Assembly (NCBI GenBank): GCA_000934665.2
Contig: KZ538017.1
Coordinates: 1 to 64,000 of the forward strand
Direction of reading: 5' to 3'
Origin: Catajapyx aquilonaris
Taxonomy: Eukaryota
DNA: 64,000 bases
Shown here: in pieces, positions 13,334 through 43,296 of the stretch
Layout of the letters: every line of letters begins with the position of its first letter
Position numbering within the stretch: the first letter of the stretch is position 1
Translations under genes and position numbers: made by a program
The notes under the pieces: model-generated
Told to the model about the DNA's origin: nothing
The model's input: only the letters and a program-made list of their open reading frames with translations
Database searches by the model: none

Positions 13334-13777
13334 ATGGCAGACTGGTCGAGCAGTAGTACCGTAGCTACTACTACGATGACGATGGCGGGGGCCGCTGAAG
13401 AGGAGCAGGAGATGGGTCCGTACAACGAGACCTGGGAGGACGATTACGACTGGAGCAACTGCAGCAACGAGTACTGCGTGTCCAACGAGGACTACATGCA
13501 GATGATCGAGGACCACGTCCACCCGAGGGACTACGAGTGGGTCCTGATCGCCCTCTTCGGAGCGGTCTTCATCGTGGGACTCGTGGGGAACTGCCTGGTC
13601 TGCACAGCCGTCTACAGAAACCACGTGATGAGGACGGTCACCAACTACTTCATCGTCAACCTGGCCGTCGCCGACTTCATGGTCATCCTCCTCTGTCTGC
13701 CCCCGACCGTCGTCTGGGACGTGACCGAGACGTGGTTCCTAGGGGACATCCTCTGCAAGATCGTCCTCTACCTGCAG
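13334..13777 (+). CDS. AT-R: Allatotropin/orexin-type neuropeptide GPCR, coding exon 1 (N-terminus, TM1 to start of TM3)
   Basis: CSNEYCVSNEDY...YEWVLI, GLVGNCLVC, NHVMRTVTNYFIVNLAVADFMVILLCLPPTVVWDVTETWFLGDILCK are typical of arthropod allatotropin/orexin receptors. Ends CAG|GTCAGT, phase 0. Confidence 0.95.
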
Positions 13778-13837
13778 GTCAGTTGATCCTAATTTGTCAA
13801 CGAGAGTGCCGAAACTTGGCAACACTGCCAGGAACTC

Positions 13838-17300: not shown

Positions 17301-17399
17301 GCTGCTGATTGGCTTATTGTTACTGGAAAAAATAGCGCTTTGGCATAAGTAGTAACCGCTATTTGCAAACCCGTGAAAATACCCTGTTAAAATTAGCTG

Positions 17400-17790: not shown

Positions 17791-18215
17791 ATTTTTACGT
17801 CAGAATAATTGAGTGACTGGACGTGAAAGTGTAATCAAGCGGTCTCTAGGGATGAAAAACTTTGATAATAATCTGCATAAGGTTATTACAACCTGAGCTG
17901 TAAACGCCTGCCTGCTTTTTTAAACCCAATTAAGGTCCACGCTGGGGGGCTACATTAATGCCTTGGCAATATTGCTAGCTTATGAATATAGCAGGCCGGA
18001 GTCAAAAAATGGATGCTAATCCCGCTCTTTGCCCAATTATTTTTTTCGTATAACGCATTATTTTATTTGAAACAGAGAGGAAAGTAGTCGTCCTGTGCAT
18101 GTTAGTGTCATCTGCATGGCTTTTGGGTGACCGCTACTTCCAGCTTGTGTCCCTGCCAGGCACGGGCCGTCGCTCTGAGTGATGATTTTAGTTAATTGCA
18201 ACCGTGTGGGCTATA

Positions 18216-18456
18216 CAGGGTGGACCAACTTCAAGTGTCGTTTTATAACGGCTATTAATAGAAGCGCTTTACGATTGACGTAGCAGCGACGTGTAAAATG
18301 GCCCACTTCGGCGCCATCGAAAATATTAGCAGCCCTGTTGGCAGCTAATATTTTCGATGGCGCCGAAGTGGGACATTTTGCACGTCGCTGCTACGTCATC
18401 GCAAAATCACTGCTATTAATCGCCGTTATAAAACGACACTTTAAGTTGGTCCACCC
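18216..18456. mobile_element. Tc1/mariner-type MITE family A, copy 1
   Basis: TA-CAGGGTGGACCAACTTCAAGTGTCG long terminal inverted repeats; right end slightly eroded. Confidence 0.88.
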
Positions 18457-20656: not shown

Positions 20657-20888
20657 GTGTTCTGACGTCCGCTGGAAAAAAAACCGTAACTCAAAATCCA
20701 CATCCCTTGCGGCGAGAAAAGTAAGAAAGTGTTTCCGAAAGCCACCAAGAGGTGGCGTTGAAGGAAGTGGGAAAAGGAACGGGCACCCCACCTCCATCTG
20801 TTGGATGCTTTTGGTACCACTCCTTTTTTTCTCTCCGCAAGGGAAAGTGGATGTTGAGTTACGGTCTTCTTCCAGCGGACGGCAGTGT
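20657..20888. mobile_element. MITE family C, copy 1
   Basis: TIR core CCGTAACTCAA..TCCAC.TCCCTTGCGG; homologous along its length to 29136-29366. Confidence 0.8.
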
Positions 20889-22263
20889 TGCCAAGTTCTC
20901 AGCCAGGATTGGCTCGTGCACATAAATAAATAAATCTCTCTTCAACATATGATTCAACGTGGTGGTTCGCTGACCATGGTCAGTGAACCGCGCCCTGTAT
21001 GTGAAGGCGCACGAATAATAACATTCCTGAGATGCATGTTATGACGTCTTCTGCCCAAATTGCGATGTTGGAATTTTGATATGTACGACGAATGGGAGGA
21101 ATAACCTGGTGACGTCGGCTCTTCCTTTTTTATTTTGAGGCTTGAAACATTGTTATGTGTAGCCAATCGGTTTTGAACAAGTGTGACCTGCGTGGAGATA
21201 TCTTGGGTGTCAAGTGGCAGCTTGGATGGAAAAACAATGGACGAGTTTTATTATATTTCGAGAGCGGATCATTGTTTAGGGGCCGACCGAGCAGCACGAC
21301 CCATTGTTCTTTGCTTTTGCCAATTATATTATTATTGGAGGTAATGTTATTCCTAGGTTATTCCTGGTGCATACGTGCACTGAACTTGGCCGCAATCTTC
21401 GACGCGCTGGGAAAATATGCCAAATTGGCATATCAGTGTGACAAACGTGGCTCATATTGAAAGAATGATTTTTTTGCAAACTTAACCCGTCGACATTTGC
21501 ATTTTTCAAAAATGTGGATCGCGTAACCAATATTGGCATTGTAAAATATTGTCGCTGACATGTTGGTCAAATTTTCTGAACAGTTTCGGGCGATATATTG
21601 CTTTCAAATTTAGCTACGTATTACGTACTGTATAGATTGCATATGATACGTACCTGTCATTGCTTGTAATGAAATGAAATGACTGTAAGACGCCCAATTT
21701 CCAAAGAGTGCGGCCAAAAATATCCAGTCTTTAGATGATCTAATCAGTGGGATTCGTAGCTAGACAATGTCTGAAGGTCACATATACTGTAATATCTGCG
21801 TGTGGGTCGTTTCATGGTAATTACCTGGGTAACGAAAGTTGGCAGGGTAAATGTCACCTCAAGTTTGCAAAAGTTTACCTTATAAAGTTTGTGCGAATAA
21901 TTATGGCACATCCGGTGATTACACTCCGTGTGCTTGCCGTACTTGTCTCGATCTTTTGGCCCCAAAATGTCGAGGATTTGCAAACACTGGGGAACATGTC
22001 GTGTGAAGTAATGACCCTTTTTAATGGACTGGTGTCATTTTTGTTTTCCTGCGCCCGGAAAGGCAGGGTGTGACTGAGGGTGTTATAGCCCGGGCTATGA
22101 AAAATAGAGGAGGGAAATAAAGGAGTCATTAGTCTATTATGACAGCTATTTGCACACACTGTACACTCTCGCGCATTCAGCATCAACAGTCATCTTTTAT
22201 TTTCATGTCCGTCTCCATAATCCTCAGCAAAACGAGTCGTTTACTATGCCACGAAGTACTGTC

Positions 22264-22395
22264 GGGTTCAAATACTTTTGGCCACTTTATCCTGGTCTTG
22301 AAGCAACCCTTCGCACAAACGCACCTCCTTAACGTGGGGTCTGTGCGAAGGGTTGCTTCAAGACCAAGATAAAGTGGCCAAAAGTATTTGAACCC
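22264..22395. repeat. Foldback hairpin element (~130 bp)
   Basis: GGGTTCAAATACTTTTGGCCACTTTATC...GATAAAGTGGCCAAAAGTATTTGAACCC near-perfect inverted arms. Confidence 0.85.
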
Positions 22396-25159
22396 AATAG
22401 ATGGCGCATCCTCCCTCTCTGCACAGTGCTGCCACTCTCAGCGACGCGGCGGGTAGTGGAACTACCTAGCTCACTCTGGACAAACAGAGGCACACGAGCC
22501 TATTCTACGCAATGAATTGGTCTCTGGTTTGTGACGCTAATGGTTATTCGAGACTACGATAAAGCGGATTTTGTCGCCAATTATCGCGACCTGTAATTAC
22601 TCTTTTGGTGGCCAATATAAAAGGGCGCGAGTGTGTCCAGTGGGCCAGAACTGCCCGAAGCAACAGAGTCCATTACAGTGTACATGCAGCATTACCAACA
22701 GGAATGATTGACAGGCTGCAGCTAACTAAAAAACAAAGTACAGGGAGAACGTGGGAAGCTGGCCGATTGCCAAGTCATAGTCCGCCCCTCCTTTTTTCCA
22801 TAGCGTTTTATCGTCGATGGAAGTGTGATAAGTGGTGCACTTTGGCCTCCTGCCTTGTGAAGGAAGCCTGCAGCGGTATGCACACTCTTCAATCGCCATT
22901 AGCCAGCTCTCAAGGCTATCAAACCAGCCAGGTTCACTCACCTATCCAGATCATAAAAGGGCCACACGCTTTTATGCTCTCACACCCTCCTTAATTACCC
23001 TCACTCTCATTACACGGGAGCTTGCTTTTTGACACGAAAATTTGAAAAAAAAAGTGCGGCACATTTTCTCCTCAGATACTGTATGAGGATCTTACCCAGA
23101 TAAAAATATAATGGATCACGATGCAGACAGTTTCATTACAATTTTCTCCAGCCACGTGCCTCCTAATCGAGCTTCTTTTTAAATTACTGTAGATGATCTG
23201 GATTGGAAAAAAAAGCGACTCCATCTAATTAGCCGAGTCTTAATTAATTGGGGTTCAATCCCATGCTTTGAAAACATTTCGAGCCACCCTGTAGAGCCTG
23301 AAGGTATATATTCATTATCGCGAAAGCATGCTTTTGTAGCCATGCATGGATAGAAAGGAAAAAAAAAAAATGACCGTCAGAGAGAGAGAGAGAGAGAGAA
23401 AAAAGAGCTGGAGTTTTTAGTGTCCGAGACTATAGTAGATAAGAGTGTAGCCTACTATTCGTGGAATGCTTTTTATATAAATTTCCATGATGCATTGCAC
23501 GCGAGCACTTCGCTCCGGGCGTTTTAGCAAAAGCTGACTATGATGTTATAAATCATGTTTATGCTGATCCTTATCTGTGAAACCTGCCTCGCGACCAAGG
23601 GTATATATGCTCACACACCGTACTACATGTATACGCACACACTTCAAGACCGGACACTTGTTAAGTCCGGTACATCGCATTAAGTATGGACAGGAAAACA
23701 ATAGCGACGTATTTTGCGCGATTGTCGTGTGATGGCTATATTGGTCATTCATCGCGCGACCTTATGTGCTACATAAATATGCCCCCGAGTCCGTAATATA
23801 ATCTATATATTTATATGAAAGGGAAAGTTGGTATGTTTGTAAGGGCTTCCCAACCACTTTCAGACTACAGAGAGGAATGAAACTTGGCACACTGATAGTA
23901 GACCGGACAGTGGTTGAGGAAAAGGTCCGAAAGTCACACTTTTTGGGCATAAACCCACCAAAATTTATGATTTATGAGTTTGAGTTTTAGCCGGGTTTTC
24001 ACCATATGCCACTGGATGGCGCTAGCGACCGGTTCGAGCCGCACGCAACAGATGGCGTGGGCATGCACTGTCTCTGCGCGTGCGTAATGAACAACGAAGG
24101 GCATCAAAATAAATTCCGAAGTCGCGATAACTGTAGCGCTATGTCATTTTGTTTTTTCGATAATTCCCGTTGTTATTATCTCGCTCTATAGTAAGCGCCT
24201 GTCCTGGGGTGTCCAGCCGGGTAATAATATCGGGCGTACCAGCTGGACGGAATAAGTGGGACAGGACATTGGGCAGGAGACGGATGGTGTCGTTTGGGTG
24301 TCCCAGCCTGGGTTGTCTCGGAGTCAGGCCCTGAGAAATGGATGGACTCGCTTTGAAAGGCTGACCAGATTGATTGGTCAGCCGGAGGGACACCCTTTTA
24401 GCACTCTTTTTTTTATATCGCAAAAAAGAAGTGTTTTTCTAAGGTGGGCGCGTAGAGTGCGAGCCAAAATTATTTACGATCGAGTTCATGCCTCGGATTA
24501 AGTCGCCGCCAGTATTTTGGTCCAAAAATAATGGTCGTAATGAGGCGGGGGTTAGTAATTTGCGGGGCGAAAGTTAATTAACCGTGTTGTAGCGCCACCT
24601 TCCGATCTAAAGTAAACACTTTTCCCGACACTTAATTACTTTTGGGAGCCAACCTGCTGCTGCTGAACAAGTGCATTAAGGGCATTTCCCTCCTTCCCTT
24701 CTCTTACTTTTATATCGGCCTCCGATCATCGGCTTCTCTGGAGGGATTCCGGGGAAAACACGGCGAGTATAGAGGGATTCTCTCAGGCGAGAAGCTTTGC
24801 CCGCAGAAAACCACTCTTTTCTCAGGGGAGGTGAAGTACTAACCACCATCATCCATTTCAGCGGCACACTTTCTCTCCGGAAAGAAACAGCGCAGCTTTA
24901 CCTTACTTGATCTCCGGGTCAGAAGGCTACATCTGACATTTTTAAGGGGGCCGGATACCTATGAGATTATTCCGATTCTAATTGATCGAAACGCCGTCGG
25001 GGGCTCCATTGGCTATTCCTCGCCATTCTGTGAAAATTTCAGGTCCGTACCTCCAGCGAGACGCCCGCATCGGCGGTGCAAAGAGAACGCTGCACCCGTG
25101 TGACTCGGCCAAACTTTAAACGCGATTCGGAAAAATCGCGTAGATATCCGTCGCCCCTA

Positions 25160-25760
25160 AGCATTCTCTGGAGAGAAGTGGTTCAAGAAATATGGCTTCT
25201 CCCCGGAGAGCGAGATATAACTTATCTTTGGGGAGAAGCTATTATCAAGCTGCCCTCCGCGGAGGGAAGTCGTTCAAGAAAACCGCCGAACATCACGGAA
25301 TGACCTCTCCGGAGAGAACCTATATCAGCCATAGGGATCCTCTCCGGAGAGAAGCCGTTTAGGTAATGTGGTTTTTTAAATGTGGTTTCTCTCCGGAGAG
25401 ACGCTATAGCAGTCATGTGGATCCTCTCCGGAGAGAGGCCGTTTAGGTAATATGGTTTCTCCCCGGAGAGCATGAAATGACTTCTCTCCGGAGAGTAGCT
25501 ATAGCAGTCATATGAATCCTCACCGGAGAGAAGTCGTTGAGGTAATGTGGTTTTTTTCCGGAGAGACGCTATAGCAGTCATGTGGATCCTCTCCGGAGAG
25601 AAGTCGTTTAGGTAATATGATTTCTCTCCAAAGAGAAACAAGCGGTCATATGTATCCTCTCCGGCGAGAAGTCGCTTAGGCAATATAGTTTCTCCCCGGA
25701 GAGAGCGAAATGACTTCTCTCCGGAGACAAGCGGTTTGATGACTTCTCTTCGGCGAGAGG
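25160..25760. repeat. Degenerate tandem array built on the palindrome CTCTCCGGAGAG
   Basis: More than 15 copies at irregular ~25-35 bp spacing; related arrays at 36370-36510 and 59805-60420. Confidence 0.9.
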
Positions 25761-26840
25761 CATGCAGCTCTTTAACTCTCTATTTCCCTGTATAATGTTC
25801 TGCGTTATTATATATAACGATCTGTGCCTGGGACGAGACAGTCCTTGATGTAGTAATAACTCTCCCAGAATGCCCAACAGCCTTCCCCTTGGTTCGCAAC
25901 CAATTTCATTCCCCCATCCCTCCTCCTCCTCCTTCCATCCTCCTTCCGCTCATTGGTCCGGAAGAGAGCCGGGTCAAAGGTCAAAGGTTCAGCTATCATA
26001 TGCTAGCAATGCTACAGACCCAGCCATGCGACCGAACTTGCATCCGACTATATATCCTGTGATGAATTATTGTTGGCTCCAGCAACCTGTAGAGAAGAAA
26101 CACTATAGTCGTTAGCAATATTTGGCAAAATAATAAGCAGCTTTGGTAATTCAAATTAGCCGATATTATTATTATATTACGTGGTGCACACAGTGCAGTG
26201 GTTTAAATGAAGGGGGGAAAAAAACCAGCGTACAGTTCATGACCGTGCTTGAATCCAAGAGGTGAAGTACCGGTAATTAGACCTATACGGATATGCAGTT
26301 CGCCTCGTTTGCATCTAATTACACTGACATCATAGAGATTGTCGCATACATACGTGTCATATCAGCTGAATACGATAAGCTAATGGACAGGCCGGACCGG
26401 AGATCAAATAGCGCAAATGAGATGTAACGACGTAGCACCGCCGCCGCCGTTGTCGTCGCGACGCTGGCTGCGGTGTCGACAACACAAGGTGACACCTCCG
26501 ACCTCGCTTCATCACAGGGTGCCTCACAATAATTGGGATGCAACTCCTCAGGTTGTCAACTCTAGTAATTTTTAGGCTATAGTAGGTGACAATATTAATG
26601 AATAGTCTGGATCGCGATCAGAAACGCGTCTACCGATTTTAGGAGCGGCCCATGTAGGGCGCGAACTAAGGGCGAGGAAGGAAGCCAGCGAGAAAATAAT
26701 TGAGCATTGATTGATTGATTCGCCCTGCACTTTGCCCAAATTAATTGCGTGCCAATAAGTGCTGGGTTATCGACTGGTAAAAAGGGCAGCAGGTGTCTTG
26801 TGACGTCAGTTGGAATAAGCACGACCCTTTTTTATATATA

Positions 26841-27047
26841 CAGGGTGGACCAACTTCAAGTGTCGTTTTATAACGGCGATTAATAGCAGTGATTTTGCGA
26901 TGACGTAGCAGCGACGCGTAAAATGTCCCACTTCGGCGCATGTTCGGCGCAATCGAAGTGGGCAATTTTACACGTCGCTGCTACGTCATCGTTAAGCGCT
27001 TCTATTAATCGCCGTTATAAAACGACACTTGAAGTTGGTCCACCCTG
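26841..27047. mobile_element. Tc1/mariner-type MITE family A, copy 2 (207 bp)
   Basis: CAGGGTGGACCAAC...GTTGGTCCACCCTG flanked by TA on both sides. Confidence 0.92.
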
Positions 27048-28283
27048 TATATATATATATATATATATAAATGCGGCAGTGTGTAGCGGACTGCTGATAT
27101 CCGGGATTAGAGAGACGAAATGTAACCGGATATTGTAATCGGATTACCGCACTTTGTAACCCGATGACGTCACGTGCCTATAGTTTTATCGACTGGACCG
27201 GATGAGTAACGAAATCAAACTGGTTGTCCGGAATTAGCTACAGGTGGGGCCGCCGCCTCATTTGTCTCCGGGATACTCCACCAATTATTTGGCTGTCAAA
27301 CCGCTCTCTAATCACGCCGGATCCTCATTGAGTTATTAAGGATACAGGGGGTGTCACAATACTCGTCTGCTGCTCCGCCCACAACTCTGTGCCACATGGC
27401 CTAACCTAACCCCGCTATTAACAACCCCGGCTTACAATCGCCGCTACTTTTCAACGTGGCTGAAAATAACGGCGACTCTACTATTAGAACTTGCAGTGAT
27501 TCAGACATGCTATTTTTACCCGTGATTTATAGCCCATGAAGGTTAAATGTCCCACCGCGAATTGCTGTAAATTGGTGGAGCACTTTTGGCAGGTTGGTGC
27601 GCAATCGGAAACCATGATTGGCTCTCCCGATAATGCTCCGGAGCATCATCCATCAAAAATTCCGGAAGAGTGGAGAGTGCACAGGGGGCCATTGTTCGCC
27701 TAACAGAACTCAACCAACTCCATCGTCGAGGGAGCTGCCTTTTGTTGTATGCGCCCTATGAATACAATGCGATCCGGCCCATATTCCTCTTATTATTGGC
27801 TGCCATTGTTTGACGTTGCTTTTGTTGCAATCGGATGTAACCGATACATGAAAAAGATGTCCAATTTTTTTGATCTCATAGGCTGAACTGCTGCCTGCCA
27901 ATGTGTCTAGGGGCATCCGATGTCATGCGGGTTGCCGCGAGTGTCTAGTGGCAAATGTTTGTAACTCGTTATCAGTCCCAGTTGCGGACATTTGTTCCCC
28001 CTACATTGTTTCGATCCAACGAGTATTTTTGGCGGCCTGTGTGTCAAGCAGGAAACTGTAATAACGGATATAGCGAGTACATTGTGGCTCGGAGGCCAAA
28101 TCTCCGAGGCGGTTGGATGGTCACGTTCCTTCTGTGTGTGTGCTTCTTGGTCTCAAAGACACGGAGACTGTACTTTATAGGAGAACATCGACTCGGTCTG
28201 CAGTCACGTCTCAGACACAGCAAATATTGCCGGCCTCTTAAAAGAAATGAGATTATATATTGTTCCTTTCTCTTGTTGTTCAG

Positions 28284-28431
28284 ACGGTGTCGGTGTCGGT
28301 GTCTGTGCTGACCCTGACCTTCATCTCGATCGACCGCTGGTACGCCATCTGCTTCCCGCTCAAGTTCAAGTCAACCACGTCCAGGGCCAAGACGGCCATC
28401 CTCGTCATTTGGATCGTCTCTCTCCTGCTCG
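28284..28431 (+). CDS. AT-R: Allatotropin/orexin-type GPCR, coding exon 2 (TM3-TM4)
   Basis: TVSVSVSVLTLTFISIDRWYAICFPLKFKSTTSRAKTAILVIWIVSLLL with the DRW motif. TTCAG acceptor, G|GTAAGT donor. Confidence 0.95.
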
Positions 28432-28545
28432 GTAAGTCTTTCAACAGGGCCTTCAACTACACCTTCAACTAACAAGGAAACCCGCATAATTGGTGTCGTC
28501 GCTGTTTTTATTTTAATTTTGGATGGGACATTGTGCTCGCTGACT

Positions 28546-30224
28546 TTACATAAATATGTATGGCCTACCGGTCTTCTTGACATGTGATTGGACCTGCCTC
28601 ATATCCGACTTTATTATGTCCAGCATGGTGTTAACTTCCAGCAGGCTGTGTCTGACCCTCTCCAGCCTTAGCTTGACCGATGGCTCGACCTCTGGAACCA
28701 CTTTTGCCCTGACCTTATTTCCTTTCAACGAGCGGATCCTGTTCGGAATAACCGTGGTGGTCAGTGATTTGCTGCTGGCCGCTGCCTTGACCTTTCCTCT
28801 CAACTTTGTGTCTGATCCGGCCTTGACCCTTGACACATGGTCAATCCCGAGGTTTCCGAACCTCCTGCAGTACTCGTTGGTCACTCTGGCCGCCTGGGTG
28901 TCTCGCTGCATCAGCTTGCTGAGTTTGGACATGAATCGGTCACGGGTCACAGGCCCCCTGCTGTCTTCCTTCAGGATCGCATCCTGCAGGCTCCTGTACC
29001 TTCTGTACACCACGTGGTCGGGTTCACGCCGGGAACCGGGAATTCGACACAGTTCCGCTTCGTCTAGTTCTGTAACGGCTGTGGAAATAATTGCGCTAAT
29101 GTCACATTTGCTAATTTGAGCTTCAGGTCTGCTAACTCTGCCGTCAGATGTGAGAGGACCGTAACTCAATATCCACTTCCCTTGCGGCGAGAAGAGAAAG
29201 CAAGTGTTACCGAAAGCATCCAAGAGGTGGCGTTGGGAGAAGGGGGGAAAAGGAACGGCATCCCAACTCCACCTGTTGGATGCTTTTGGTACCACTGCTT
29301 TCTTTTCTCGCCGCAAGGGGAAGTGGACATTGAGTTACGGTCCTCTCATATCTGACGGCAGAACTTAGGCTTACTTACAGGGCGAGCTGGTGGTGAGTTC
29401 GTCGCTTAACCGACGCTGGTTAGCCTGGCGACATTGAGTTATGTACTCGCGCATGCGCCGGTCACCTGTAAGCAAAAAATGGGGGTTGTGCGCATGGCCG
29501 TCGAGGATTGGAAATAAGAGGGTTGGAACTACCTTACCGCCATGCTTCTTCATGGCTGAGGGCCACCTGTCTGCGCAGTCGCTGACGGTGGAGCTCAGGG
29601 TACGACGCTTCCAAGGGGCTGCCACTGCCGCGCGACCCATGCTGGCCTCCTTCAGGGCCACAGGTACCCTGCGTAATTTGGGGCCTAGACCCACAATGCG
29701 ATCGCCCCTGGCAACGGCCGCCTCGATGCGCATCTCGATCACGTCTGCCTTTCCTCTCGCATCGTTGATACCTACGGGCAGGAAAGCAAGGACTATAGTT
29801 ACCTCGAAAAGAACCTGCACACCCACACTCGCGCAGCTCCATTGTTCCGACAACAGTGTTGCCAGGGGGCCCAAAAATTCTGAGTTACGTTCCAGAAATT
29901 CGGCAACGTCGAAAACCTAATCACTTATCTCCAACACTACTCATGGCCGGGAAGCCCCAATAAGAGTAGTGTTGGAAATAAAGTGCAACGCCAGCTGTTA
30001 TTGATAATTCCAACCGTGCACGCTGCGCGAACTGTGGGGCGCACTCGGTTCTTTTGACGTGTCAGCGGCATAGGATATTATATGAGACACATTGTATTAC
30101 CTCTCTGAATGGCATTGGGATCGTAGCTGAATAACATCTTTGCGTCCGAGTCCTCTCGGGGACTGGCGACTGGAGAAAAGACTCGCGTGACCTGCCCTGC
30201 CCTCACTGGACGATAGCCATCCAT
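28546..30224 (-). CDS. Nested antisense three-exon gene, 349-aa basic protein of unknown function
   Basis: Exons 30224-30101, 29771-29379 and 29078-28546 total 1050 nt in one open frame through two phase-1 GT-AG introns. Start context GCGGCTATGG; AATAAA at 28512-28507. Confidence 0.8.
29136..29366. mobile_element. MITE family C, copy 2, inside intron 2 of the nested gene
   Basis: TCTGCCGTCAGAT.TGAGAGGACCGTAACTCAA and its reverse complement at the two ends. Confidence 0.85.
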
Positions 30225-30920
30225 AGCCGCCAACCTGCGCCGGTCGTCTCACAAGTTCTTTCGGAGCGATTCGAACCCGGTGGCCGTTGCCGCAACAATA
30301 ATATACTGCCACAACGCGCCGTTGCTTGACGACACTGGCATATCAAACCAACAGGCGCTGCTTTTATCTGCCCCACAACCGCCAGCGAAAAAAAAAAAAA
30401 ATCGCGGTGACTTTCAGCTGCTACAAATAACTTTGATGCTCTTTCTGTTCCGTCCTTGTGTGTATAGCCTAAGCGAAATGGATGCAGCTGGTCCAAAAAT
30501 AAGAGCTTGAGGCAGGTCCTGCAAAACACGTAGCATCCATTATGGCCGTCGCTTTATATCCACTAAATTTCCTCCATTCCCTTCCCTCCCCCCCGGTGGG
30601 TGGGAAATATGTTACTCTGTCTCTCTCTCTCTCTGTTGGTGGTTCCGAGAGATCTTCTGCAGACTGCATCACAAGTTCCATTGGGATGCAGCAGCTGTGC
30701 TGTCTCTTGGACGTGAAGATTTTTTAAGGAACCGCTCGGCCATACCCCCACAACTTTTCCCCGCAATGCGTGCCATTTAAATACCTCGATCCAACTCAAA
30801 ATGGCCATTAGCAATTTGGCAGATATTTTGGTTGTAGGAAATAATTATATACCGGTATTGTGTTGCGGACAGTAAGCTGCTTACATGGGGTTGATTTAAG
30901 AGGTAATTTGCTAATTGCAG

Positions 30921-31175
30921 ATATCCCCGAGCTGGTGGTCCTGGAGACTCGACCCCGACCCGACCTGGCCATAGTGACCCAGTACTTCACCCAGTGCATC
31001 GCCACCTGGAGCGACGAGTCGGAGATGGTGTACAGCGTGATGAAGGCCGTTCTTCTCTACACCCTTCCCCTGGCCTTCATGTCCCTCGCCTACTTCCAGA
31101 TCGTCAGGGTCCTCTGGAGGGCAGACATACCCGGAAGAAGGGAGGCCAACACGTCCAACAACTCGCAACAACACT
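30921..31175 (+). CDS. AT-R: Allatotropin/orexin-type GPCR, coding exon 3 (ECL2, TM5)
   Basis: DIPELVVL...TQCIATW...LLYTLPLAFMSLAYFQIVRVLWRADIPG. TTGCAG acceptor; the T|GTCAGT donor gives the phase 1 needed for exon 4. Confidence 0.9.
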
Positions 31176-31542
31176 GTCAGTTCATCGCTTTTTTTTGCGA
31201 CTTGGATCAAAAATGGCGGCTTCCATGGCACGACGTGGCCTACCTTTATATGAAAAGGGGTTGCCAGATGATTTTGAGGGAAACATTTCCTTCAAAATCA
31301 TCTGGCAACCCTTTCCAAGCCGCCATGTTTGATCCGTCCTATTTCTAATGCGTTTGGTGCTGTTTAAAAGGTGGCTGACACTTCAAATTATATGGATTTA
31401 ATTAAGCGACACAATAAGTGCTCGTGGTTTAAGTGCCAGGAACGGCGCTCAATTAGCGCCTAATATTCGCAGCATCCGTCGCCCCGACTAATTACCTCGT
31501 CTAATTAGCCGGCCTCGTTTTTTTTAAATGTGTGTTTGGCAG

Positions 31543-31753
31543 TGAACAACTCCTGTCGCAACAAGACGTCGCTGAGTTCGTCGTCCGGCGTGCCGTTGGT
31601 GCACGGGCATCCAGTGACGTCGTCGACGTCGTGCGGCGGAGGACAGCACGACGGTCCACTCCGGGCCCGTCGGAAGGCGGCCAAGATGCTGGTCGTCGTC
31701 GTCGTCATGTTCGCCGTCTGCTACTTCCCCGTCCACCTGCTCAACATCCTCAG
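31543..31753 (+). CDS. AT-R: Allatotropin/orexin-type GPCR, coding exon 4 (ICL3, TM6)
   Basis: LRARRKAAKMLVVVVVMFAVCYFPVHLLNILR; phase 1 in, phase 2 out. Confidence 0.93.
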
Positions 31754-31875
31754 GTATATATTATAGTGTTGAACTCACACTCATCATGCAGTGTATCAAA
31801 TTGGTGCTACGTGTACTGTGTTGCCAATATACCTATGAATGTGACACGCATTTTTCACCGCATATTTTTTTGCAG

Positions 31876-31988
31876 ATATATTTCCGCCATTCCCCAGAAC
31901 GACTTGACTTCCAGCTTTTCTATGATTTCCCACTGGCTGTGCTATGCCAACAGTGCCATGAACCCGGTCATCTACAACTTCATGAGCG
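31876..31988 (+). CDS. AT-R: Allatotropin/orexin-type GPCR, coding exon 5 (TM7)
   Basis: SHWLCYANSAMNPVIYNFMS with NPxxY; G|GTGAGT donor, phase 1. Confidence 0.95.
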
Positions 31989-34403: not shown

Positions 34404-34628
34404 ATGGGTTATCAGTGGGATGCGACGTTGCCATTTTGAGAGAGGAAGGTGGTGAGTGTGCGCCGAAAGTGAATAGTTTGATCCCGTTTTTAATTGTGGT
34501 GGTTAGGTAATAATAATAGTGCGTGTGGGTGAGTGCCTGTCTCTGATTGGTTCTCTCTTCTCTCTCTCTCTCCCTCTCTTTCTTTCCCCATCACCCTCTC
34601 TCTTTTTCCCTTCCCACCGTCTTTTCAG

Positions 34629-34876
34629 GCAAGTTTCGGAGGGAGTTTAAGCTGGCCTTCAGGTGTCTGTGTCTGTACGGCGACTATTACCCGGCAGCCT
34701 CTGCCCGAGTCCACACGTCCCATTGCACTACAACAATGCTCAGGGTGCACACAACGTCCAACAACAACGTCAACAACAACAACAACAACAACAGGGCAGC
34801 CAGACAAAGCTCACAAATATACCGTCTGCCCTCCTGCAACAGCGACCTGCAAAAGACGAGAGACACACGCATGTGA
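34629..34876 (+). CDS. AT-R: GPCR alternative last exon 6a (isoform A, 472 aa)
   Basis: Long pyrimidine tract and TTTCAG, phase 1: GKFRREFKLAFRCLCLYG...NNNNNNN...DTRM*. Confidence 0.88.
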
Positions 34877-36663
34877 TTCTTTTGACCTGGCTGAAGATGT
34901 CTGGTGACCTATGTTGCTGCCGCCACATGTGTGACCTCGGGTCAAACCCTGACCTCTGAGAGGGCCGGTTTACATGTTCATCCTCCTCGACACTGCTGTG
35001 CCGCCTCCCCCACACATTCATACCCATTTTGTACCCATCCGACACTTGGGACAGACAGACAAGACATCCGTCTCTTTATCCAAAAAAAATGACCAAGAGT
35101 TTCAGGCCAAACCCGCGTTAACTTATAATTACCTAACCACCACAAACGAAATCAACTGGTATGACCTGACGCTTTTGACAACAATTTACTCGAGTTAAAA
35201 TGGTGTAGGGGAAAAAAAATTCCACGACACGAATGTGCAGGATTAAGACATATACCCTGACGTGACTTGGACTTAATAACCTCTAGGGAGAAAGGACTGG
35301 ATCATTGCTGCTTCCGACAAGGAGCAATACTCTTGTAAATAATAATAATAATAATCGACAGTATTTAATTGGTGCCAACAAATGCCCGGCCATGCATGTT
35401 TGCCAAAACAAGTGTGCCAAAAAAAAGAGGAAAATGGAAAGAAATTTATTGTTATTGTCGATGTCAAATGCATGCCTGGTCGATTATGGGGGCAATTTGC
35501 GCGCACTAACGCATTTTATGTACTGTAATTAAATGTGGGGGGGATTGACAGTGCGAGTGTTATGTTCATTGTGCTCATGTTTTAAAATATGTGGACCACT
35601 TTTGCTCAGGACGATAACGGATAAGGTCCGGTTGCCCATTTTCCGGCTGGAAAAAAAAAAAGTTTTACGGCCAGAAAATGTTTCCTGCAACCGGGAACCT
35701 GTATTGACGAATTGCAAGTTTAAAAAGCGAGAGTATAGTACAGAGTACTTTCCACAAGTAGACCATATTATTAATATTGCTGCTTTAATATTCCCAATTC
35801 CATGTAAACAGTAGTGCGCATTTCCATATGTACGGTATTGCAAAAGTTCGTTTGCACCAACCGCCAGGAAACATTTTCCTACCGGAAAATAGCCAGAAAA
35901 GTTTGTAATCGGTAGGAAACATTTTCGGCCGATTGCAAATTTTTCTGGTTGTTTTTCCGGCAGGAAAATGTTTCATGGGGATTGGCGCAACCGGATCGTA
36001 ATGTGGGATACATTCGTGTGTATTTAAAAATAAAATAACGCGTTGTTGTCAAGTTGTGTATCTCGATATCGTGCGTGTATCCTTGCGCGTTGTGATGTGA
36101 ATGTTATACTTGAACTCTCGACGTCGCAGCATCCGCCATTTGATCCCTTACAGTCGTGCCAATTCGCCATGAAATGTAACTCAGGATCTGGTTGTGTCAA
36201 AAAAAAAAACTTATATTTTAATGTAGTAAATCGAGTTTACAAAAATAAACCAGAAATGTCGTGAAAAACATTACAATCACGTGTATTTTCATCCCTTCTG
36301 TTATTTTCAAAGTTATTTTCCATTGTTATAATTATTCAAGTGGCGGTTATTTGCTCTTTTAAACAAATACGTCTCCTCCCCGGAGAGAAAATGGAGATAA
36401 ATGGCTTCTCCCCTGAGAGAAACTATAGAAAATGGTTTCTCTCCGGAGTGATGTCATTCCAAAAATACCCCTCCGGAGAGAAGCCATTTTCTAAACTTTC
36501 TCTCCGGTGTGATGCGATTTTTCATCAAAAAATAATCCGAATAAAATAACTCATACTGAAATAACATACTTGAAGCAAATCTTTTAAGCAACTAGTTGTT
36601 TTCCATTGTAATATTCAACTAGCAGCTATTTCGTTTTCAACTAACAGCTTTGTTTTGTTAATA

Positions 36664-36870
36664 CAGGGTGGTCCAAGTTCAAGTGTCGTTTTATAACGGC
36701 GATTAATAGAAGCGCTTAACGATGACGTAGCAGCGACGTGTAAAATTGCCCACTTCGCTGGCGCCGAAGATGCGCCAAAGTGGGACATTTGACGCGTCGC
36801 TGCTACGTCATCGCAAAATCACTGCTATTAATCGCCGTTATAAAACGACACTTGAACTTGGACCACCCTG
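36664..36870. mobile_element. Tc1/mariner-type MITE family A, copy 3 (207 bp)
   Basis: TA-CAGGGTGGTCCAAGTTC...GAACTTGGACCACCCTG-TA. Confidence 0.92.
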
Positions 36871-37038
36871 TATTATAACCGCTACTTGAAAGCAGTTCTT
36901 AAAATCAGTTACATTTCGCGACTAGCTTTTAGTGCGATGCGACGTTGCCAGATTTGTGCATTTCTGTCCAGAATAATTCGTTGTTGAAACGTCGTGTATC
37001 GAGCCACTGGATTGGATGCTTGACCTTTGACCTTCCAG

Positions 37039-37229
37039 GCAAGTTCCGGAAGGAGTTCAAGAGGACGTTCTGCTGGGGTCGTGGTCGGGGTCGTGGCAAG
37101 AGTCGCAGGCAGCCTCACTCGAGCAGCACCTACGTGTGGAGGTTCACCAGGACAATGAGCATGAGCACACCTCGCACCGAGGAGCTGCCCATGACCTCCA
37201 TCGTCACCACCGCACCTGACCTGGACTAG
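37039..37229 (+). CDS. AT-R: GPCR alternative last exon 6b (isoform B, 453 aa)
   Basis: CCTTCCAG acceptor, phase 1: GKFRKEFKRTFCWGRGRGRGKSRR...TTAPDLD*. GC3-rich codons like the other exons. Confidence 0.88.
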
Positions 37230-38010: not shown

Positions 38011-41000
38011 CCGACATGTTGCCAAGCTTTGTTTGCTCACCGTGTGATCTCGGCAATGCAGCGTTGCCGTCTTCGAGTAAAATGTTCCGATCTCATTCTC
38101 TCTTCCTTTTCGGACGGAACAAGTGCATGACTGATGACTTGTGAACATATCTGTCGCTCTACTTACTGTGGTACCCTTGTAAAATGCGGATGGATATTAT
38201 AAAAAGGAAAGCGGTGGCATCTATTTTGAATCCCGCAACACCACCAACTGGTTTTTTAATCTCGATTTTAAATCCCACTTTTATAGCTCATCAACATTGC
38301 GCCTTTTTTTCTATAATAACACCCGTTTCAGAAGGCTTCTGCAGACGGTACTGGTATCTCCGTGGTCCGGTAAGTGTCTTTCGTCATATATTCAAAAGGG
38401 CGGGGGCATGTCAGCATTCAGAGAGTGGCAATTACAATAATGGCAAGGGTGCTTTCTGCCCAGAAGGAAAAATTGTCGCGTGTAATAATTATTTTATGGT
38501 TCGTCGAGATAAAAGTGTCGTACCCTGGAGCGCTGGAGGCGTTAGACTCTCTCCAGATTGCAGGCTATTTCTTTACGACTATTGCATGTCTTTGCACTGA
38601 AAATAGCGACGATATTTAGTGCAGATTTTTCCACCTTCTTATTTTCATCACAATGACAGGCGGTACGACAATTATTGTAAGAGGGCCTTCAACTATTGCT
38701 CAACCTGATATTGTAGCAACAGGAAACTCGAGACTTATTGGAGACCTTGAGACCTTTGATTGCAACCCGTTGCCTTATACCTTCCGGCCAATAAAACACT
38801 GCGAAAGACGACAGGCATGAATAACTGATCGCCCTTTGTTGTAATTGCGGTAATAAAAGTGCGAGATAATTCATCCAGACTCGACATGTCCGTGTGTGTG
38901 AGAGAGATCCTGATTGTTGGTTTGGATTAACTGCCAACTGGAACCGGAAGTGTGTCCTGTCCAGGACAGTTTCCGGACGTTTCTGCGATCTTGTCCGGAG
39001 TGTGAGACCAATTTCAGCTCGACCAGTAGACTTGGGCTCCGGGGGAATCGTATATCTTCAAAGTGGTCATGGTTTCCCCTCTTGACATCCTGGGTAGTGC
39101 CTGTTACATACCCTGAAGCAGCCATGCACTGTGTGATGATGCGCTCTATTATATACCCCCTTTTCCGACTACTCTCTGCTGGTCCCATCTCCAGGCGCCT
39201 GGAAAAGCCTGGAGCACTTTTCCAGGGTTTATTAGGCTATGTCGAGTCTCCGGAAGAAGGGATTCCGGATAAGGAGCTCTCAAGGTCCACTCGACGGATT
39301 TACACCCGGATATAAAAAAGTGCACTCTGTATGTCAAGGTTCGCAGATTGGCGATGTAAGTGTCATAGGCTGTATTTACATATGCGCAATGCTATAGATT
39401 TCAGCGAACCTACCATATAGAGAGCTTACCAGGTATCATTGATAATGCCAACCCTGCGAGCTGCGCGGACTGTGGTGCGCACTAGGTTGTGCTCATTTTT
39501 AAAATGATCCGCAATTATTCGAGTAACGAGGCTGCGTCGTAGGGCAAATAACATAAAGCGATGTTCTAATCAGTTCACCTTAGAAGTTTGTCTATACTCA
39601 TTATGACACTTTGTGCAGAGGGCGCCTTTAGCAACACAAGAAATCGCGACTAATTGTTGCGGATAAGCTGTCTTCATGTGACGGATGCAAATGAGGCGAT
39701 AATCCGAGAAATACGATAGTGGCCCCCATTTACACGATAGAACCTGATAGTCTTCCTGGTTCAGCCAGCTTTTGTTACGACCTGCGACTGGAGAGAACTA
39801 TAAGACCGTAACGAGCTCAGCGGGTCAAGGTCTGGCACGTGTCCTGGAGAAAATGCCTATATATAGACACGTGTCGCGACTTATGGTCTCGGATAGGACC
39901 TGAAAGTCTTCTCGGCTGTTATAATGGGAAGCATTCAGTCATCTCGAGCAGGGTGTGTTGCATACCCTTCAGCGACTTGTCTCAACTGGTTTACCCGAGA
40001 TGTATTGCTTCAGACTTTGCCAACTTCAGGCACTTGGGATTCATTCCGTTCTGACAGGGATTAAGCCGAGTCGCGTCATCCGGATATGCCAGAGAGGCAC
40101 GTCGTAAAAATGTGCCCGTAACAACAGCAGCGGTAACAAATAAATACGGAGCCTATACGTGTACATACTCGAAACGGTAATGTCATCGGTTACCGTTTCA
40201 TGCGGAATAATATTTGCGAGCAGGGAAAAAAAATGCTGGCAATTTCCGGCACTCGACCTTGGCATATTCCTTCCTGCAGCATGAAACCATAAAACAAAAA
40301 AGGCATAGTTGTCAGGGGTCAAACCCACCCCCTTCCTATATCCATCTCAAGGATCGCATATTTGGGGGGGGGGGGGGGTGACTCGTANGGTGACTCGTAG
40401 GCGAATTTTTAAAACTGTGTTGGCCCACAAAAGTGCGAAAAAAAATTCCGAGTTGCAAAAAATTCGATGTGTAGAGCTGTAGCGTGGATGTGATAGATAC
40501 AATTAATTCATTTGCCACAGCGAGTGGCTGTTTGTACAAGGTGGAAAAGAGAAGATTTGACCCGAATTTATGGCGGGGAGTTTCCGGGGAATAAATTTTG
40601 CAACCTAATGAGCAAAAAAGAGGGGGGGGGGCGGTTACTATTTGCGCGAATGAATCAATCTATTCGCCACATCACAGGGCTTGCGAAAAGTCACGCGGGT
40701 TTCAACCCTGCAAAATATCGCGAATTTTTGTAGCTACTGTAGTTTGCTTTTTTTAAATTTAAAAAAAAACACCCTTTTCCCTCCCGAGGAGCAGCTACAA
40801 ATAACCGCTCTTTTTTTATGTCGATGCTGCTGAGTATAATACCGGGGCCGATATTGGCTCATTACTTTCATGATCCGCATGTATAGGTACTGTGTAATGG
40901 TTCGAAAAGAGTATAAGGTGCTACTAATCCCAGTTTTTTGGAGGGGTGAAAAATGAGCGAGATGGTGAAGGATGAAGAGCATTCTGTACAACCCCCCTAG

Positions 41001-42205
41001 GGTGTTTGATGACCGGTGTTTTATGCCGCGATGTTTATTAATCCTGGGCTCCCAGCGCCGCAGTATCATGCAAGTTGCCTGCTTTTGATAAAAGAGTCCA
41101 ATTAATGCGCAGGACCGCAAACTATAGGGGCTACTCGTGTTCGCCTCTAGAAGGCCTCGTTATAATACCCCCAACTCTGATGATGGAAGCGATACTCGAC
41201 GCCCGCGTATTATATTATTAGTCTAAAGGCGTCGTATCCGATCAGCGACAGTCGTTTACACAAGCGAAAAGCTGGCAACACCGCTGATGACTCACCCCGG
41301 ACACTACATAGCCGCTAAAGCGCAGCTGCTATTATAGCAGCGAGCGGATAATGCGTTGAGCGAGCGTGTGAACCGCAGTTGGCACGACCACTCTTGTCCA
41401 GCCGACCGGTCCAAAACTCGCAGCACGTGTTGCGAACTCTTGGAATTGAATTGAAAAGAGCCATTGGTCCAGTGCAGCCTCCTACAAAAAAATTATGATC
41501 TCGTGGATGGAGGCCGCGATATAATGAGACCCGCTTCGTGCATGCACACCGATTATATACACTTTGTTCGTACCCCTGTGTGACCACTCGTTGCGAACAC
41601 TAACCGGGTTTGGTACGCTTCAAATAGAATTTTAAACTAAAATTGGTCAGTTTGAAAAGGCAAATGTTACGGTTAGTGAATCCCTTTTTGTTTGACTAAT
41701 TGGCGCATCAATTAGCACCCTCGCTTACTATAACTTTGCATGTTGAAATATTGGCAACGTTGGCAGTAGATAGGCTATTAAGAATTTGAAGCATCTACAG
41801 CCTGGTCTTTGATCAGCGTCGCCTCTCAGAGTAAGTTGATGTCATGCTTTGAAAACATGTCGCGATGTCAATATTGGCAAACCACATCAGTCATGCGCCA
41901 GGTCATGCACATGCAATGTTGCATATACCTCTCACTATTTATCTGTGGGGCATGTAACTCCAGACTGAAGCGGACCTTGCCAAAAATGAGTCGCATTTGG
42001 CCAATCTGCATATAACGTTATTTGCTACACAAACTAACCCCATTAAAATCCGCGACGAATGCCCTGGCCAATATTTGCCGGCTTATGAATATCAGGCGGA
42101 GGAAAGAATGCTAATCCTTCATCTCCTGTATCCATCCATCCATCTCTCAGTCGCCGTCACATGCTTTTGTTGAAGAGATGGTAGGGGAAAATGTGTTTGG
42201 ATATA

Positions 42206-42412
42206 CTGGGTGGACCAACTTCAAGTGTCGTTTTATAACGGCTATTAATAGAAGCGCTTTAGATTGACGTAGCAGCGGCGTGTAAAAAGGTCTACTTCGA
42301 TGGCGCCGAAGCTTGGCCGAAGTGGGACATTTTACACGTCGCTGCTACGTCATCGCAAAATCACTGCTCTTAATCGCCGTTATAAAACGACACTTGAAGT
42401 TGGTCCACCCTG
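42206..42412. mobile_element. Tc1/mariner-type MITE family A, copy 4 (207 bp)
   Basis: Same TIRs and length, TA flanks. Confidence 0.9.
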
Positions 42413-43296
42413 TATAGTTGTGCATCACTCCAACCATTAGCCTCGATACATTCTGAAAGGAAAAGATGGCGGGGGGTGAATGCGGTTGCCACACCCTTGA
42501 AAAGAAATTATAGAGGGCAGCAGCTCCGATGCCACTCACACCAAAGCGACCTGGTAGCAAAGCCACAGTAACGTTTGTTGGCACGGTGCGGACAGTTGGC
42601 GGCGGATACACAACCCACAACGCTCGGAGGTAACTAAAAATTATGCGACTGACCGTGCCTGGCAGCGCCTCAAATCAGTACTTAAGGTTACCCAAAAGCC
42701 ATACAGATGACACCAATGGGCTGTGTTGATCTTAATCGGCGTCCAGCGCGTCAATATTGGGCGTCAATTAAGGGGGGCGGTGCGTGAGGGTTTGTTTGAT
42801 GACAGCGTTAAAACACAATCCTAATTGAGCTGCAGCTCGGACCGTATTTGAATTGCAAATGTTTTATATTTTTGGCGAAACGCAGACTTAATGTCCACTC
42901 GTCAGCTGCTTTTTATGGCTCGTTTTATAACCTAGGGCGAAAAAAATACCAAATTAGCGAATTACTGTGTAACAAAGCTTCGGTTGTTTTTTTTCACGAG
43001 GATGATGGTATGCAAATATTTTGCGAGTTGTCTTTTGTCTTCCGGAAGGTGAGCTGTACAAAGGGGCTCTCTCCATTGTGCCACCCAAATTATGCAATGG
43101 CCCCACTTGGTTTGCTTAAGTGCCTGTACCTACACGCCACTTAAACCCTCGTAGGTACAGTACACTACAGTGCAGAGCATTGTCCTCTCGAATGAATCGA
43201 CGCAATAGTTGAGCGAGACTTTGCTCAATTTCGTACTTGGAGCGTCATTATGCAAGTTTAATAACTCCCTGTTAATTTTCGGCTACGTAATAGTTT

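What the first reader, a model, noticed from the sequence alone, without database searches (positions are those of the whole stretch)
34629..37229. Duplicated alternative last exons give the receptor two different cytoplasmic tails
Seen: after the TM7 exon (phase 1) two exons both begin with helix 8 (GKFRREFKLAF vs GKFRKEFKRTF) and then diverge completely, each with its own stop. Tail A has RCLC and a poly-Asn run. Tail B has one Cys, a basic GRGRGRGKSRR patch and a Ser/Thr cluster (TRTMSMSTPRTEE). Known: GPCR tails control palmitoylation, GRK/arrestin binding and trafficking. Inference: exon duplication created a splice switch between signalling isoforms of an allatotropin/orexin receptor.
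Basis: partly seen in the sequence, partly recalled or inferred. Interest (0 to 1): 0.72.

Follow-up and report, generated by a model that had tools for sequence, protein, structure and literature searches.

The report
Two alternative tails of allatotropin receptor
An arthropod hormone-receptor gene ends in two alternative final exons that give the same receptor two different inner tails, an arrangement also annotated in bees, ants, whiteflies and thrips, so it is real and probably old but not a new kind of thing.

Summary
A five-exon allatotropin/orexin-type GPCR core (13334-31988, + strand) ends in phase 1 after NPVIYNFMS. Two downstream exons (34629-34876 and 37039-37229) each start behind an AG in the matching phase. 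Each re-encodes helix 8 (GKFRREFKLAF / GKFRKEFKRTF) and has its own stop, giving 472 and 453 aa. These are the only two helix-8 motifs in the six frames of the window.

Tail B is the conserved arthropod tail (z 9-11 against whitefly, leafhopper, stick-insect and spider tails). Tail A has no detectable relative beyond helix 8. It does have frame-specific coding composition above all 5000 intron controls and the strongest acceptor tract of the gene.

Annotated isoforms of the orthologous gene in 16 of 20 species examined (13 Hymenoptera, 2 Hemiptera, 1 thrips) split at the same point into two tails, each with its own helix 8.

Most likely (0.7) these are working alternative last exons. Use of either junction in this species is untested, and orthology of tail A to the other insects' second tail is unresolved. 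It is a new member of a known kind, of moderate interest.

The parts
13334..13777 (+). Exon 1: start codon, N-terminus, TM1, TM2, start of TM3; donor CAG|gtcagt, phase 0
   Evidence: sequence; Pfam 7tm_1 E 2e-17; 551 homologs; tblastn of 10 of 10 homologs
28284..28431 (+). Exon 2: TM3 with DRW motif (SIDRWYAI), ICL2, TM4; ends in phase 1
   Evidence: Pfam 7tm_1 E 1.3e-10; tblastn 10 of 10
30921..31175 (+). Exon 3: ECL2, TM5, start of ICL3; donor ACT|gtcagt
   Evidence: 7tm_1 E 1.9e-5, below the Pfam cut-off; tblastn 10 of 10; the frame closes only with this donor
31543..31753 (+). Exon 4: ICL3 and TM6; donor CAG|gtatat, ends in phase 2
   Evidence: tblastn 10 of 10; full frame open
31876..31988 (+). 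Exon 5: TM7 with NPVIYNFMS; ends with the first base (G) of the Gly codon; donor GCG|gtgagt
   Evidence: 7tm_1 E 9.4e-5, below the Pfam cut-off
34553..34628 (+). Long C/T-rich tract and AG acceptor of tail exon A
   Evidence: pyrimidine fraction 0.91 at -25..-4, the highest of the gene's six acceptors and above the 99th percentile (0.77) of 1138 intronic AGs
34629..34876 (+). Alternative last exon A (coding part): helix 8 KFRREFKLAF, Cys-x-Cys, Ser/Thr-rich stretch, Asn run, stop TGA; 82 codons with the split Gly
   Evidence: codon-usage score +0.27 bits per codon, GC3 0.72; no GT[AG]AG donor in 34629-34990
35528..36034 (+). First candidate poly(A) signals after exon A (ATTAAA 35528, AATAAA 36029)
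   Evidence: hexamer matches only, not evidence of use
37039..37229 (+). Alternative last exon B (coding part): helix 8 KFRKEFKRTF, one Cys, RGRGRG basic patch, SSSTYVWRFT, TPRTEELPMTS, stop TAG; the conserved arthropod tail
   Evidence: z 11.2 against Bemisia and 9.0 against Macrosteles, 0 of 1000 shuffles each; z 11.0, 10.4 and 9.9 against P0019, P0015 and P0082; profile score reached by 2 of 500 shuffles
38790..38795 (+). First canonical AATAAA after exon B
   Evidence: hexamer match only

Best explanation
This is an arthropod allatotropin/orexin-type neuropeptide GPCR gene whose last intron lies exactly at the TM7/helix 8 boundary, in phase 1 inside the Gly codon. The donor at 31988/31989 can be joined to either of two terminal exons. 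Because the intron sits before helix 8, each terminal exon has to bring its own helix 8, and each does. Joining to 34629, with cleavage somewhere downstream of the exon A stop, gives a 472-aa receptor with a lineage-specific tail (Cys-x-Cys, Ser/Thr-rich, Asn run). Skipping exon A and joining to 37039 gives a 453-aa receptor with the tail conserved across arthropods (basic RG patch, SSTY..RFT, TPRTEELPMTS). The seven-helix core is identical, so ligand binding should be the same. The isoforms should differ in what the tail controls: lipid anchoring, phosphorylation-dependent desensitisation, and trafficking. Shown: the anatomy, phase and open frames, coding-type composition of both exons, homology of tail B, and the same two-tail split in annotated isoforms of 16 other insects. 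Inferred: that both junctions are used here, that the choice is a competition between the strong proximal acceptor plus polyadenylation and the distal acceptor, and any signalling difference. Open: whether exon A is the ortholog of the other insects' second tail exon.
For: Acceptors, phase and stops were read directly, and both spliced frames are open with one terminal stop. These are the only two helix-8 motifs in six frames of 64 kb. The first 37 nt are 28 of 37 identical while the flanks do not align. Helix 8 has therefore been kept in both copies although everything around it has diverged beyond recognition. Exon A in frame scores +0.27 bits per codon on the gene's own codon usage, against -0.92 and -0.63 in the wrong frames. 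The maximum of 5000 intron windows is 0.17 and their 99th percentile is -0.22. GC3 is 0.72 against an intron mean of 0.46. Without the Asn run the score is still +0.06 and GC3 0.67. Exon B scores +0.24 (all). The exon A acceptor has the strongest pyrimidine tract of the gene (0.91), and exon B (0.64) lies within the range of the constitutive acceptors, 0.45-0.82. There is no donor-like GT[AG]AG in or just after exon A, as expected for a terminal exon. Homologs hit no second receptor copy in the window. In 16 of 20 species with isoform sets examined, isoforms of one gene are identical up to NFMS(G) and then carry two different tails, each beginning KFR[KRQG]E[FY]. In Odontomachus the second tail begins D instead of G, which fits a G contributed by the upstream exon (inference).
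Against: There is no transcript evidence for this species. The distal 70 residues of tail A have no detectable relative. Its best pairwise z is 4.2, driven by Asn runs. On the canonical profile 316 of 500 shuffles reach its score. Of six profiles of 'second-type' tails the best is reached by 21 of 1000 shuffles, which is not significant after six tests. The whole-library HMMER search gave one low-complexity hit, and nothing was found in metagenome contigs. The helix-8 class score of tail A is only -1.9 bits, against +15.5 for tail B. An 11-codon Asn/Val run from AAC repeats is microsatellite-like. An open frame of this length follows 3.1% of intronic AGs. The nearest canonical poly(A) hexamers lie 650 nt or more after the stop. 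The isoforms of the other insects are mostly automatic RefSeq models whose transcript support I could not inspect.
Confidence: 0.7

Rival explanations
1. Exon A is an unused relic or chance pseudo-exon. Only the conserved exon B finishes the receptor, and the helix-8 copy at 34629 is a decaying remnant of an old duplication.
For: No relative of the distal tail A was found in any search. It has a microsatellite-like Asn run. Its class score is ambiguous. Open frames of this length follow 36 of 1144 intronic AGs.
Against: A relic old enough to have lost all likeness to exon B outside helix 8 should also have lost helix 8, the frame-specific codon usage and the high GC3. Exon A exceeds all 5000 intron windows on codon usage and has wrong-frame scores of -0.92 and -0.63. 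It also has the best acceptor tract of the gene. A second helix-8 tail exon is the rule in the insects compared, 16 of 20.
Confidence: 0.2
2. Exon A is a regulatory 'poison' exon and not a protein-diversifying one. Its use serves mainly to cut down the amount of the full, conserved isoform B, and its distal peptide has no function of its own.
For: The distal tail A is not conserved. The very strong proximal acceptor would compete with the weaker distal one.
Against: Helix 8 and the cysteines after it are kept, and the whole 81-codon frame has coding-type composition, distal part alone +0.31 bits per codon. Neither would be needed for a mere truncating exon. No donor was found that would make it an internal exon subject to decay.
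Confidence: 0.07
3. Exon B is the leftover last exon of a lost tandem gene copy, and exon A is the only real ending.
For: Exon B has the weaker acceptor tract (0.64). A 220-nt mobile element sits 165 nt upstream of it.
Against: Exon B carries the tail conserved from spiders to Hemiptera. Its composition is coding-type. No other receptor exons lie in the window. Its acceptor is within the range of the gene's constitutive acceptors.
Confidence: 0.03

Closest known systems
Annotated isoform pairs of the orthologous 'orexin receptor type 1/2(-like)' gene, the insect allatotropin receptor. Examples: Apis florea, A. cerana, A. dorsata and A. laboriosa, Megachile rotundata, Monomorium pharaonis, Cephus cinctus, Bemisia tabaci, Macrosteles quadrilineatus, Frankliniella occidentalis (names as given by the sources)
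   Same: Isoforms of one gene are identical up to NPxIYNFMS(G) and then carry two different tails, each with its own KFRxEF helix 8. One tail is the conserved type ending in ..TE[VI][IM]PLS.., to which tail B aligns.
   Different: Their second tails are not detectably like tail A beyond helix 8. I could not see their genomic exon order or their transcript support. Most are automatic models and not cloned cDNAs.
Functionally characterised allatotropin receptors (Bombyx NGR-A16, Manduca, Tribolium, Aedes, Bombus, Schistocerca)
   Same: Same receptor family. They resemble vertebrate orexin receptors and raise Ca2+ and cAMP in cell assays (passages of PMC3510462; abstract of PMC4357254).
   Different: Each was studied as a single protein. 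The passages I read mention extra paralogs but no tail isoforms.
   Same: One seven-helix core with alternative cytoplasmic tails that change desensitisation, trafficking or coupling.
   Different: As I recall them, those variants diverge after a shared helix 8. Here the split lies before helix 8, so each exon carries a duplicated copy of it.
Paralogous receptor pairs in insects with two genes (Bacillus rossius P0012 and P0015 on different contigs; Lepidoptera A5 and A16 types)
   Same: In Bacillus rossius one gene carries the conserved K-type tail, to which tail B aligns (z 10.4). The other carries a GKFRREF-type tail.
   Different: The two endings lie on two genes and not on two exons of one gene. 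That this is an alternative outcome of the same ancestral state is my inference only.

Membership tests
Rhodopsin-type (class A) GPCR | Seven-transmembrane core matching Pfam 7tm_1, with DRY-type and NPxxY motifs | tested here: met
   7tm_1 passes the cut-off on exon 1 (E 2e-17, 64 bits) and exon 2 (1.3e-10, 41.6 bits). Exon 3 and the TM7 exon match below the cut-off. The TM6 piece was sent in the wrong frame and so gave nothing. DRW (SIDRWYAI) and NPVIY were read.
Allatotropin receptor / orexin receptor family | Closest sequence relatives are receptors of this family | tested here: met
   the named ones among the best 120 hits are arthropod proteins, nearly all labelled orexin or allatotropin receptor, with one labelled SIFamide receptor. 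The spliced protein is 63% identical over about 372 residues to the Carausius morosus allatotropin receptor P0006.
Allatotropin receptor / orexin receptor family | Activated by allatotropin-type peptide | not testable with these tools
   Needs a cell assay with the species' own peptide.
Alternative last exons (alternative C-terminal GPCR isoforms) | Two acceptors compatible in phase with one upstream donor, each exon with its own stop | tested here: met
Alternative last exons (alternative C-terminal GPCR isoforms) | Each terminal exon followed by its own cleavage/polyadenylation site | tested here: inconclusive
   Hexamers only: ATTAAA at 35528 and AATAAA at 36029 after A; AATAAA at 38790 after B.
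Alternative last exons (alternative C-terminal GPCR isoforms) | Both junctions seen in transcripts | not testable with these tools
   No RNA data and no genome were held for this window.
Conserved insect two-tail arrangement of the allatotropin receptor gene | Conserved-type tail (K-type helix 8, SSTY..RFT and TE..P[LM][ST] motifs) present | tested here: met
   Tail B: class score +15.5 bits; z 11.2 and 9.0 against Bemisia and Macrosteles, 0 of 1000 shuffles each.
Conserved insect two-tail arrangement of the allatotropin receptor gene | Second tail orthologous to the R/Q-type second tail of Hymenoptera, Hemiptera and thrips | tested here: inconclusive
   Tail A class score -1.9 bits. It shares ..LAF..C.C with the Frankliniella second tail (listing). 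The distal part matches no profile.

The most novel reading that the evidence does not exclude
The allatotropin receptor gene has carried two alternative helix-8-plus-tail exons since before Hemiptera, thrips and Hymenoptera diverged, and exon A here is the fast-evolving ortholog of that second exon. If so, every functional study of insect allatotropin receptors has tested only one of two ancient isoforms. Lineages with two receptor genes (stick insects, Lepidoptera) may then have resolved the splice switch into paralogs.
Probability: 0.3. Interest if true: 0.55.

Novelty: new member of a known kind. Interest (0 to 1): 0.38.

Why it matters
Allatotropin receptors control juvenile-hormone synthesis, gut and heart muscle, and are discussed as insecticide targets. 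If the gene regularly makes two receptors with one binding pocket but different tails, then tissue differences in allatotropin action, and differences between Ca2+ and cAMP responses, could come from isoform choice and not from different receptors. The deep conservation of one tail (RG patch, SSTY..RFT, TE..PLS) also marks motifs worth testing for arrestin or trafficking roles. For genome annotation, the case shows that a second helix-8 exon downstream of TM7 should be looked for in this gene family. In six literature searches and in passages of six papers I found no description of tail isoforms of this receptor. Subscription papers on the cloned receptors could not be searched.

Tried and rejected
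1. Word-index protein searches with each tail against longer proteins found nothing.
2. A whole-library HMMER search with tail A gave one hit, a 1501-aa low-complexity protein (bias 39.9 of 44.3 bits). This null is weak. Tail B's best true relative scores only 28.5 bits (E 0.13 at library size), so distant tails could not have passed.
3. The metagenome contig scan with tail A found none. With tail B it found two loci (L001, L002), which are RG-rich or Ser-rich chance matches without helix 8 or NPxxY.
4. A resemblance of tail A 'TTTMLRVHTTS' to the lepidopteran 'FTTLTRVTTSK' motif was not supported. Its profile score is -1.4 bits, and 876 of 1000 shuffles reach it.
5. A resemblance of tail A's Asn run and 'RQSSQIYRL' to the hymenopteran 'NNNNVQQSTEVIPL' gave pairwise z up to 4.2, but the profile test failed, with 316 of 500 shuffles reaching the score. 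I treat it as compositional.
6. The first codon-usage run used a wrong frame for exon 4 and is replaced. The TM6 piece was also in the wrong frame.
7. No whole genome is held for the window, so paralogs and relatives of this species could not be searched. No insect genomes are reachable, so exon order in other species was not checked.
8. Earlier findings of the scan: nothing on this genome or sequence, and the word search gave only unrelated cases.
9. Cluster look-ups of ten further proteins gave no additional isoform pairs.

Full report
THE OBSERVATION. The + strand of the window carries a class A GPCR gene. I placed five core exons from the sequence and from homolog matches:
- 13334-13777: start codon, TM1-2
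- 28284-28431: TM3 with DRW, TM4
- 30921-31175: ECL2, TM5
- 31543-31753: ICL3, TM6
- 31876-31988: TM7 with NPVIYNFMS

The last core exon ends ...AGC G|gtgagt, so one base (G) of the next codon is carried over, which is phase 1. Exon A begins at 34629 behind ...ttttcag and exon B at 37039 behind ...ccttccag. Both begin GC AAG TT., which completes a Gly codon and reads KFRREFKLAF... and KFRKEFKRTF.... Exon A stops at 34874-34876 (TGA) and exon B at 37227-37229 (TAG). Joined inside a script, the two versions give single open frames of 472 and 453 residues.

IS IT MORE THAN CHANCE. A six-frame scan of the whole window for the helix-8 pattern found these two sites and nothing else. Ten full-length homologs hit only the five core exons, and two of the ten also hit exon B, so there is no second receptor copy in the window. 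The two exons are 28 of 37 identical over their first 37 nt. They do not align in the upstream intron or further into the exon, and the distal peptides are unrelated (z -1.2). An open frame of 81 codons follows 36 of 1144 intronic AGs. The open frame alone is therefore weak evidence, but the placement of a second helix 8 in the right phase is not a chance event.

WHAT THE GENE IS. Exon 1 found 551 proteins at E<=0.001. The named ones among the best 120 are arthropod proteins, nearly all labelled orexin receptor or allatotropin receptor, with one labelled SIFamide receptor. Pfam 7tm_1 passes its cut-off on exons 1 and 2. The TM6 piece in that call was in a wrong frame and says nothing. The spliced protein is 63% identical to the Carausius morosus allatotropin receptor, and no hit is closer, so no close relative of this species is in the collection. 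No genome is held for the window.

THE TWO TAILS ARE NOT EQUIVALENT. With helix 8 removed, tail B aligns colinearly with tails of distant arthropods:
- Bemisia, z 11.2, and Macrosteles, z 9.0, with 0 of 1000 shuffles reaching the score in each case
- a spider (P0019), z 11.0; Bacillus rossius (P0015), z 10.4; Macrosteles (P0082), z 9.9

The shared blocks are the RG-rich basic patch, SSTY.[CW]RFT and [TS]PR[TS]E..P[LM][ST]. A profile of 27 such tails scores tail B at 10.6 bits, reached by 2 of 500 shuffles. I chose that set by a motif I had noticed in tail B, so the pairwise tests are the cleaner evidence. Tail B is therefore the ancestral, conserved ending.

Tail A beyond helix 8 matches nothing:
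- Its best pairwise z is 4.2, carried by Asn runs.
- On the canonical profile 316 of 500 shuffles reach its score.
- Of six profiles of other tail classes the best is reached by 21 of 1000 shuffles, which is not significant after six tests.
- The whole-library HMMER search gave one low-complexity hit.
- Metagenome contigs gave none.

The library null is weak, because even tail B's best true relative would have scored E 0.13.

IS EXON A A LIVE EXON. Three internal signs say yes.
- Scored with the gene's own codon usage against intron trinucleotides, exon A in frame gives +0.27 bits per codon. The two wrong frames give -0.92 and -0.63. Among 5000 intron windows of the same length the 99th percentile is -0.22 and the maximum 0.17. 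GC3 is 0.72 against an intron mean of 0.46. Leaving out the Asn run still gives +0.06 and GC3 0.67. Exon B gives +0.24.
- Its acceptor has the strongest pyrimidine tract of the gene, 0.91 at -25..-4. The other acceptors range from 0.45 to 0.82, and the 99th percentile of 1138 intronic AGs is 0.77. No donor-like site lies in or just after the exon, as expected for a terminal exon.
- Helix 8 has stayed nearly intact in both copies, with two of the three changes in the first eight codons synonymous, while all surrounding sequence has diverged past alignment. This argues for selection on both copies (inference).

Signs against are the microsatellite-like Asn run, the absence of any relative of the distal part, and poly(A) hexamers only from 650 nt after the stop.

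THE COMPARATIVE RESULT THAT CHANGES THE PICTURE. The tails of the homologs fall into two helix-8 types. I therefore looked up the isoform sets that sit together in the 90% clusters. I examined 20 species with two or more isoforms. In 16 of them the isoforms are identical up to NFMS(G) and then carry two different tails, each with its own KFR[KRQG]E[FY] helix 8. The 16 are 13 Hymenoptera, the hemipterans Bemisia and Macrosteles, and the thrips Frankliniella. The four without this split are:
- Nasonia, which splits later in the tail
- Nilaparvata, whose isoforms share one tail
- Centruroides, whose isoforms share one tail
- Artemia, whose second form lacks a helix 8

In every one of the 16, one tail is the conserved type that tail B belongs to.

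A position-weight classifier on the first 16 residues separates the two classes in 32 of 32 leave-one-out tests. Most of these are Hymenoptera with close relatives left in, so that is an easy test; the only thrips also classified correctly. The classifier puts tail B firmly in the conserved class (+15.5 bits). It leaves tail A almost undecided (-1.9 bits), although tail A shares ..LAF..C.C with the Frankliniella second tail.

The design 'one core, two helix-8 tails' is thus common in insects. Whether exon A descends from the same ancient second exon or from a separate duplication cannot be settled here. Most of these isoforms are automatic RefSeq models, and I could not inspect their transcript support or their exon order.

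HOW IT MOST LIKELY WORKS. The intron sits before helix 8, so any alternative ending must supply helix 8 anew. That explains the duplicated start of both exons.

Pairing the donor at 31988 with the strong proximal acceptor, with cleavage downstream of exon A, would give isoform A. Skipping to 37039 would give isoform B. The binding pocket and the G-protein face are shared.

The isoforms differ in the number of cysteines after helix 8: two in A and one in B, all candidate palmitoylation sites. They differ in their Ser/Thr clusters, and only B has the conserved basic patch and the TE..P motif. From general GPCR knowledge these features govern membrane anchoring of helix 8, kinase- and arrestin-dependent desensitisation, and trafficking. 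None of this was tested.

I put 0.7 on two working alternative last exons and 0.2 on exon A being an unused relic. Small weights go to a merely down-regulating exon A (0.07) and to exon B being a leftover (0.03).

COMPARISON WITH WHAT IS KNOWN. Alternative cytoplasmic tails are a familiar way of diversifying GPCRs. I recall EP3, 5-HT4 and 5-HT7, the mu-opioid receptor and mouse OX2R, none of which I retrieved here. The closest matches are the annotated isoform pairs of the same gene in other insects.

Six full-text searches gave no paper describing tail isoforms of an allatotropin receptor. I also read passages of six papers by term search: PMC3510462, PMC3863949, PMC4926255, PMC12483516, PMC4357254 and PMC10987541. 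They mention paralogs and splicing of the peptide gene only. Subscription papers on the cloned receptors and all supplements were not seen.

I rate this a new member of a known kind. It is real, and probably part of an old and under-described feature of this receptor family, but it is neither surprising in kind nor unique to this genome.

Noticed in passing
window 36654-36873; copies at 18212-18456, 26837-27052, 42196-42416: A palindromic element of about 215-220 nt, MITE-like, occurs four times in the window (copies 85-97% alike). One copy lies in the interval between the two tail exons, 165 nt upstream of the exon B acceptor, and one lies in the long first intron.
   Followed up: partly
window 7706-8098 (+) and 7687-8946 (+): An upstream gene has an F-box (Pfam F-box-like, E 7.4e-15). 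It is followed, in another frame, by a 420-codon open frame that looks leucine-rich-repeat-like by eye but had no Pfam hit. The two frames imply an intron or a frameshift.
   Followed up: partly
window 25295-25703 and 36360-36520: Short tandem units built around ...CTCTCCGGAGAGA... (about 35-95 nt periods) recur in the first intron and between the two tail exons. They create spurious open frames rich in 'SGEK/PER'.
   Followed up: no
window 12405-12957 and 17376-17765: There are two tandem-repeat arrays, with 41-nt and 78-nt periods. The first lies about 400 nt upstream of the receptor's start codon and the second in the first intron.
   Followed up: no
window ~4500 and ~46600: Runs of N, 207 in all, mark assembly gaps (seen as X runs).
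   Followed up: no
proteins P0012 and P0015 (Bacillus rossius), P0037/P0038 (Hyposmocoma): In the stick insect the two tail types sit on two genes on different contigs. In Hyposmocoma the two isoforms differ by a 6-residue insert (FPGFSG) exactly at the TM7/helix 8 junction, which suggests alternative donor use at the same intron.
   Followed up: no
proteins P0050/P0051 (Megachile rotundata): Both listed isoforms read RKAAKIYTIMLPSDK, so the stretch where TM6 should be is missing. They are either a TM6-skipping transcript or a model error.
   Followed up: no
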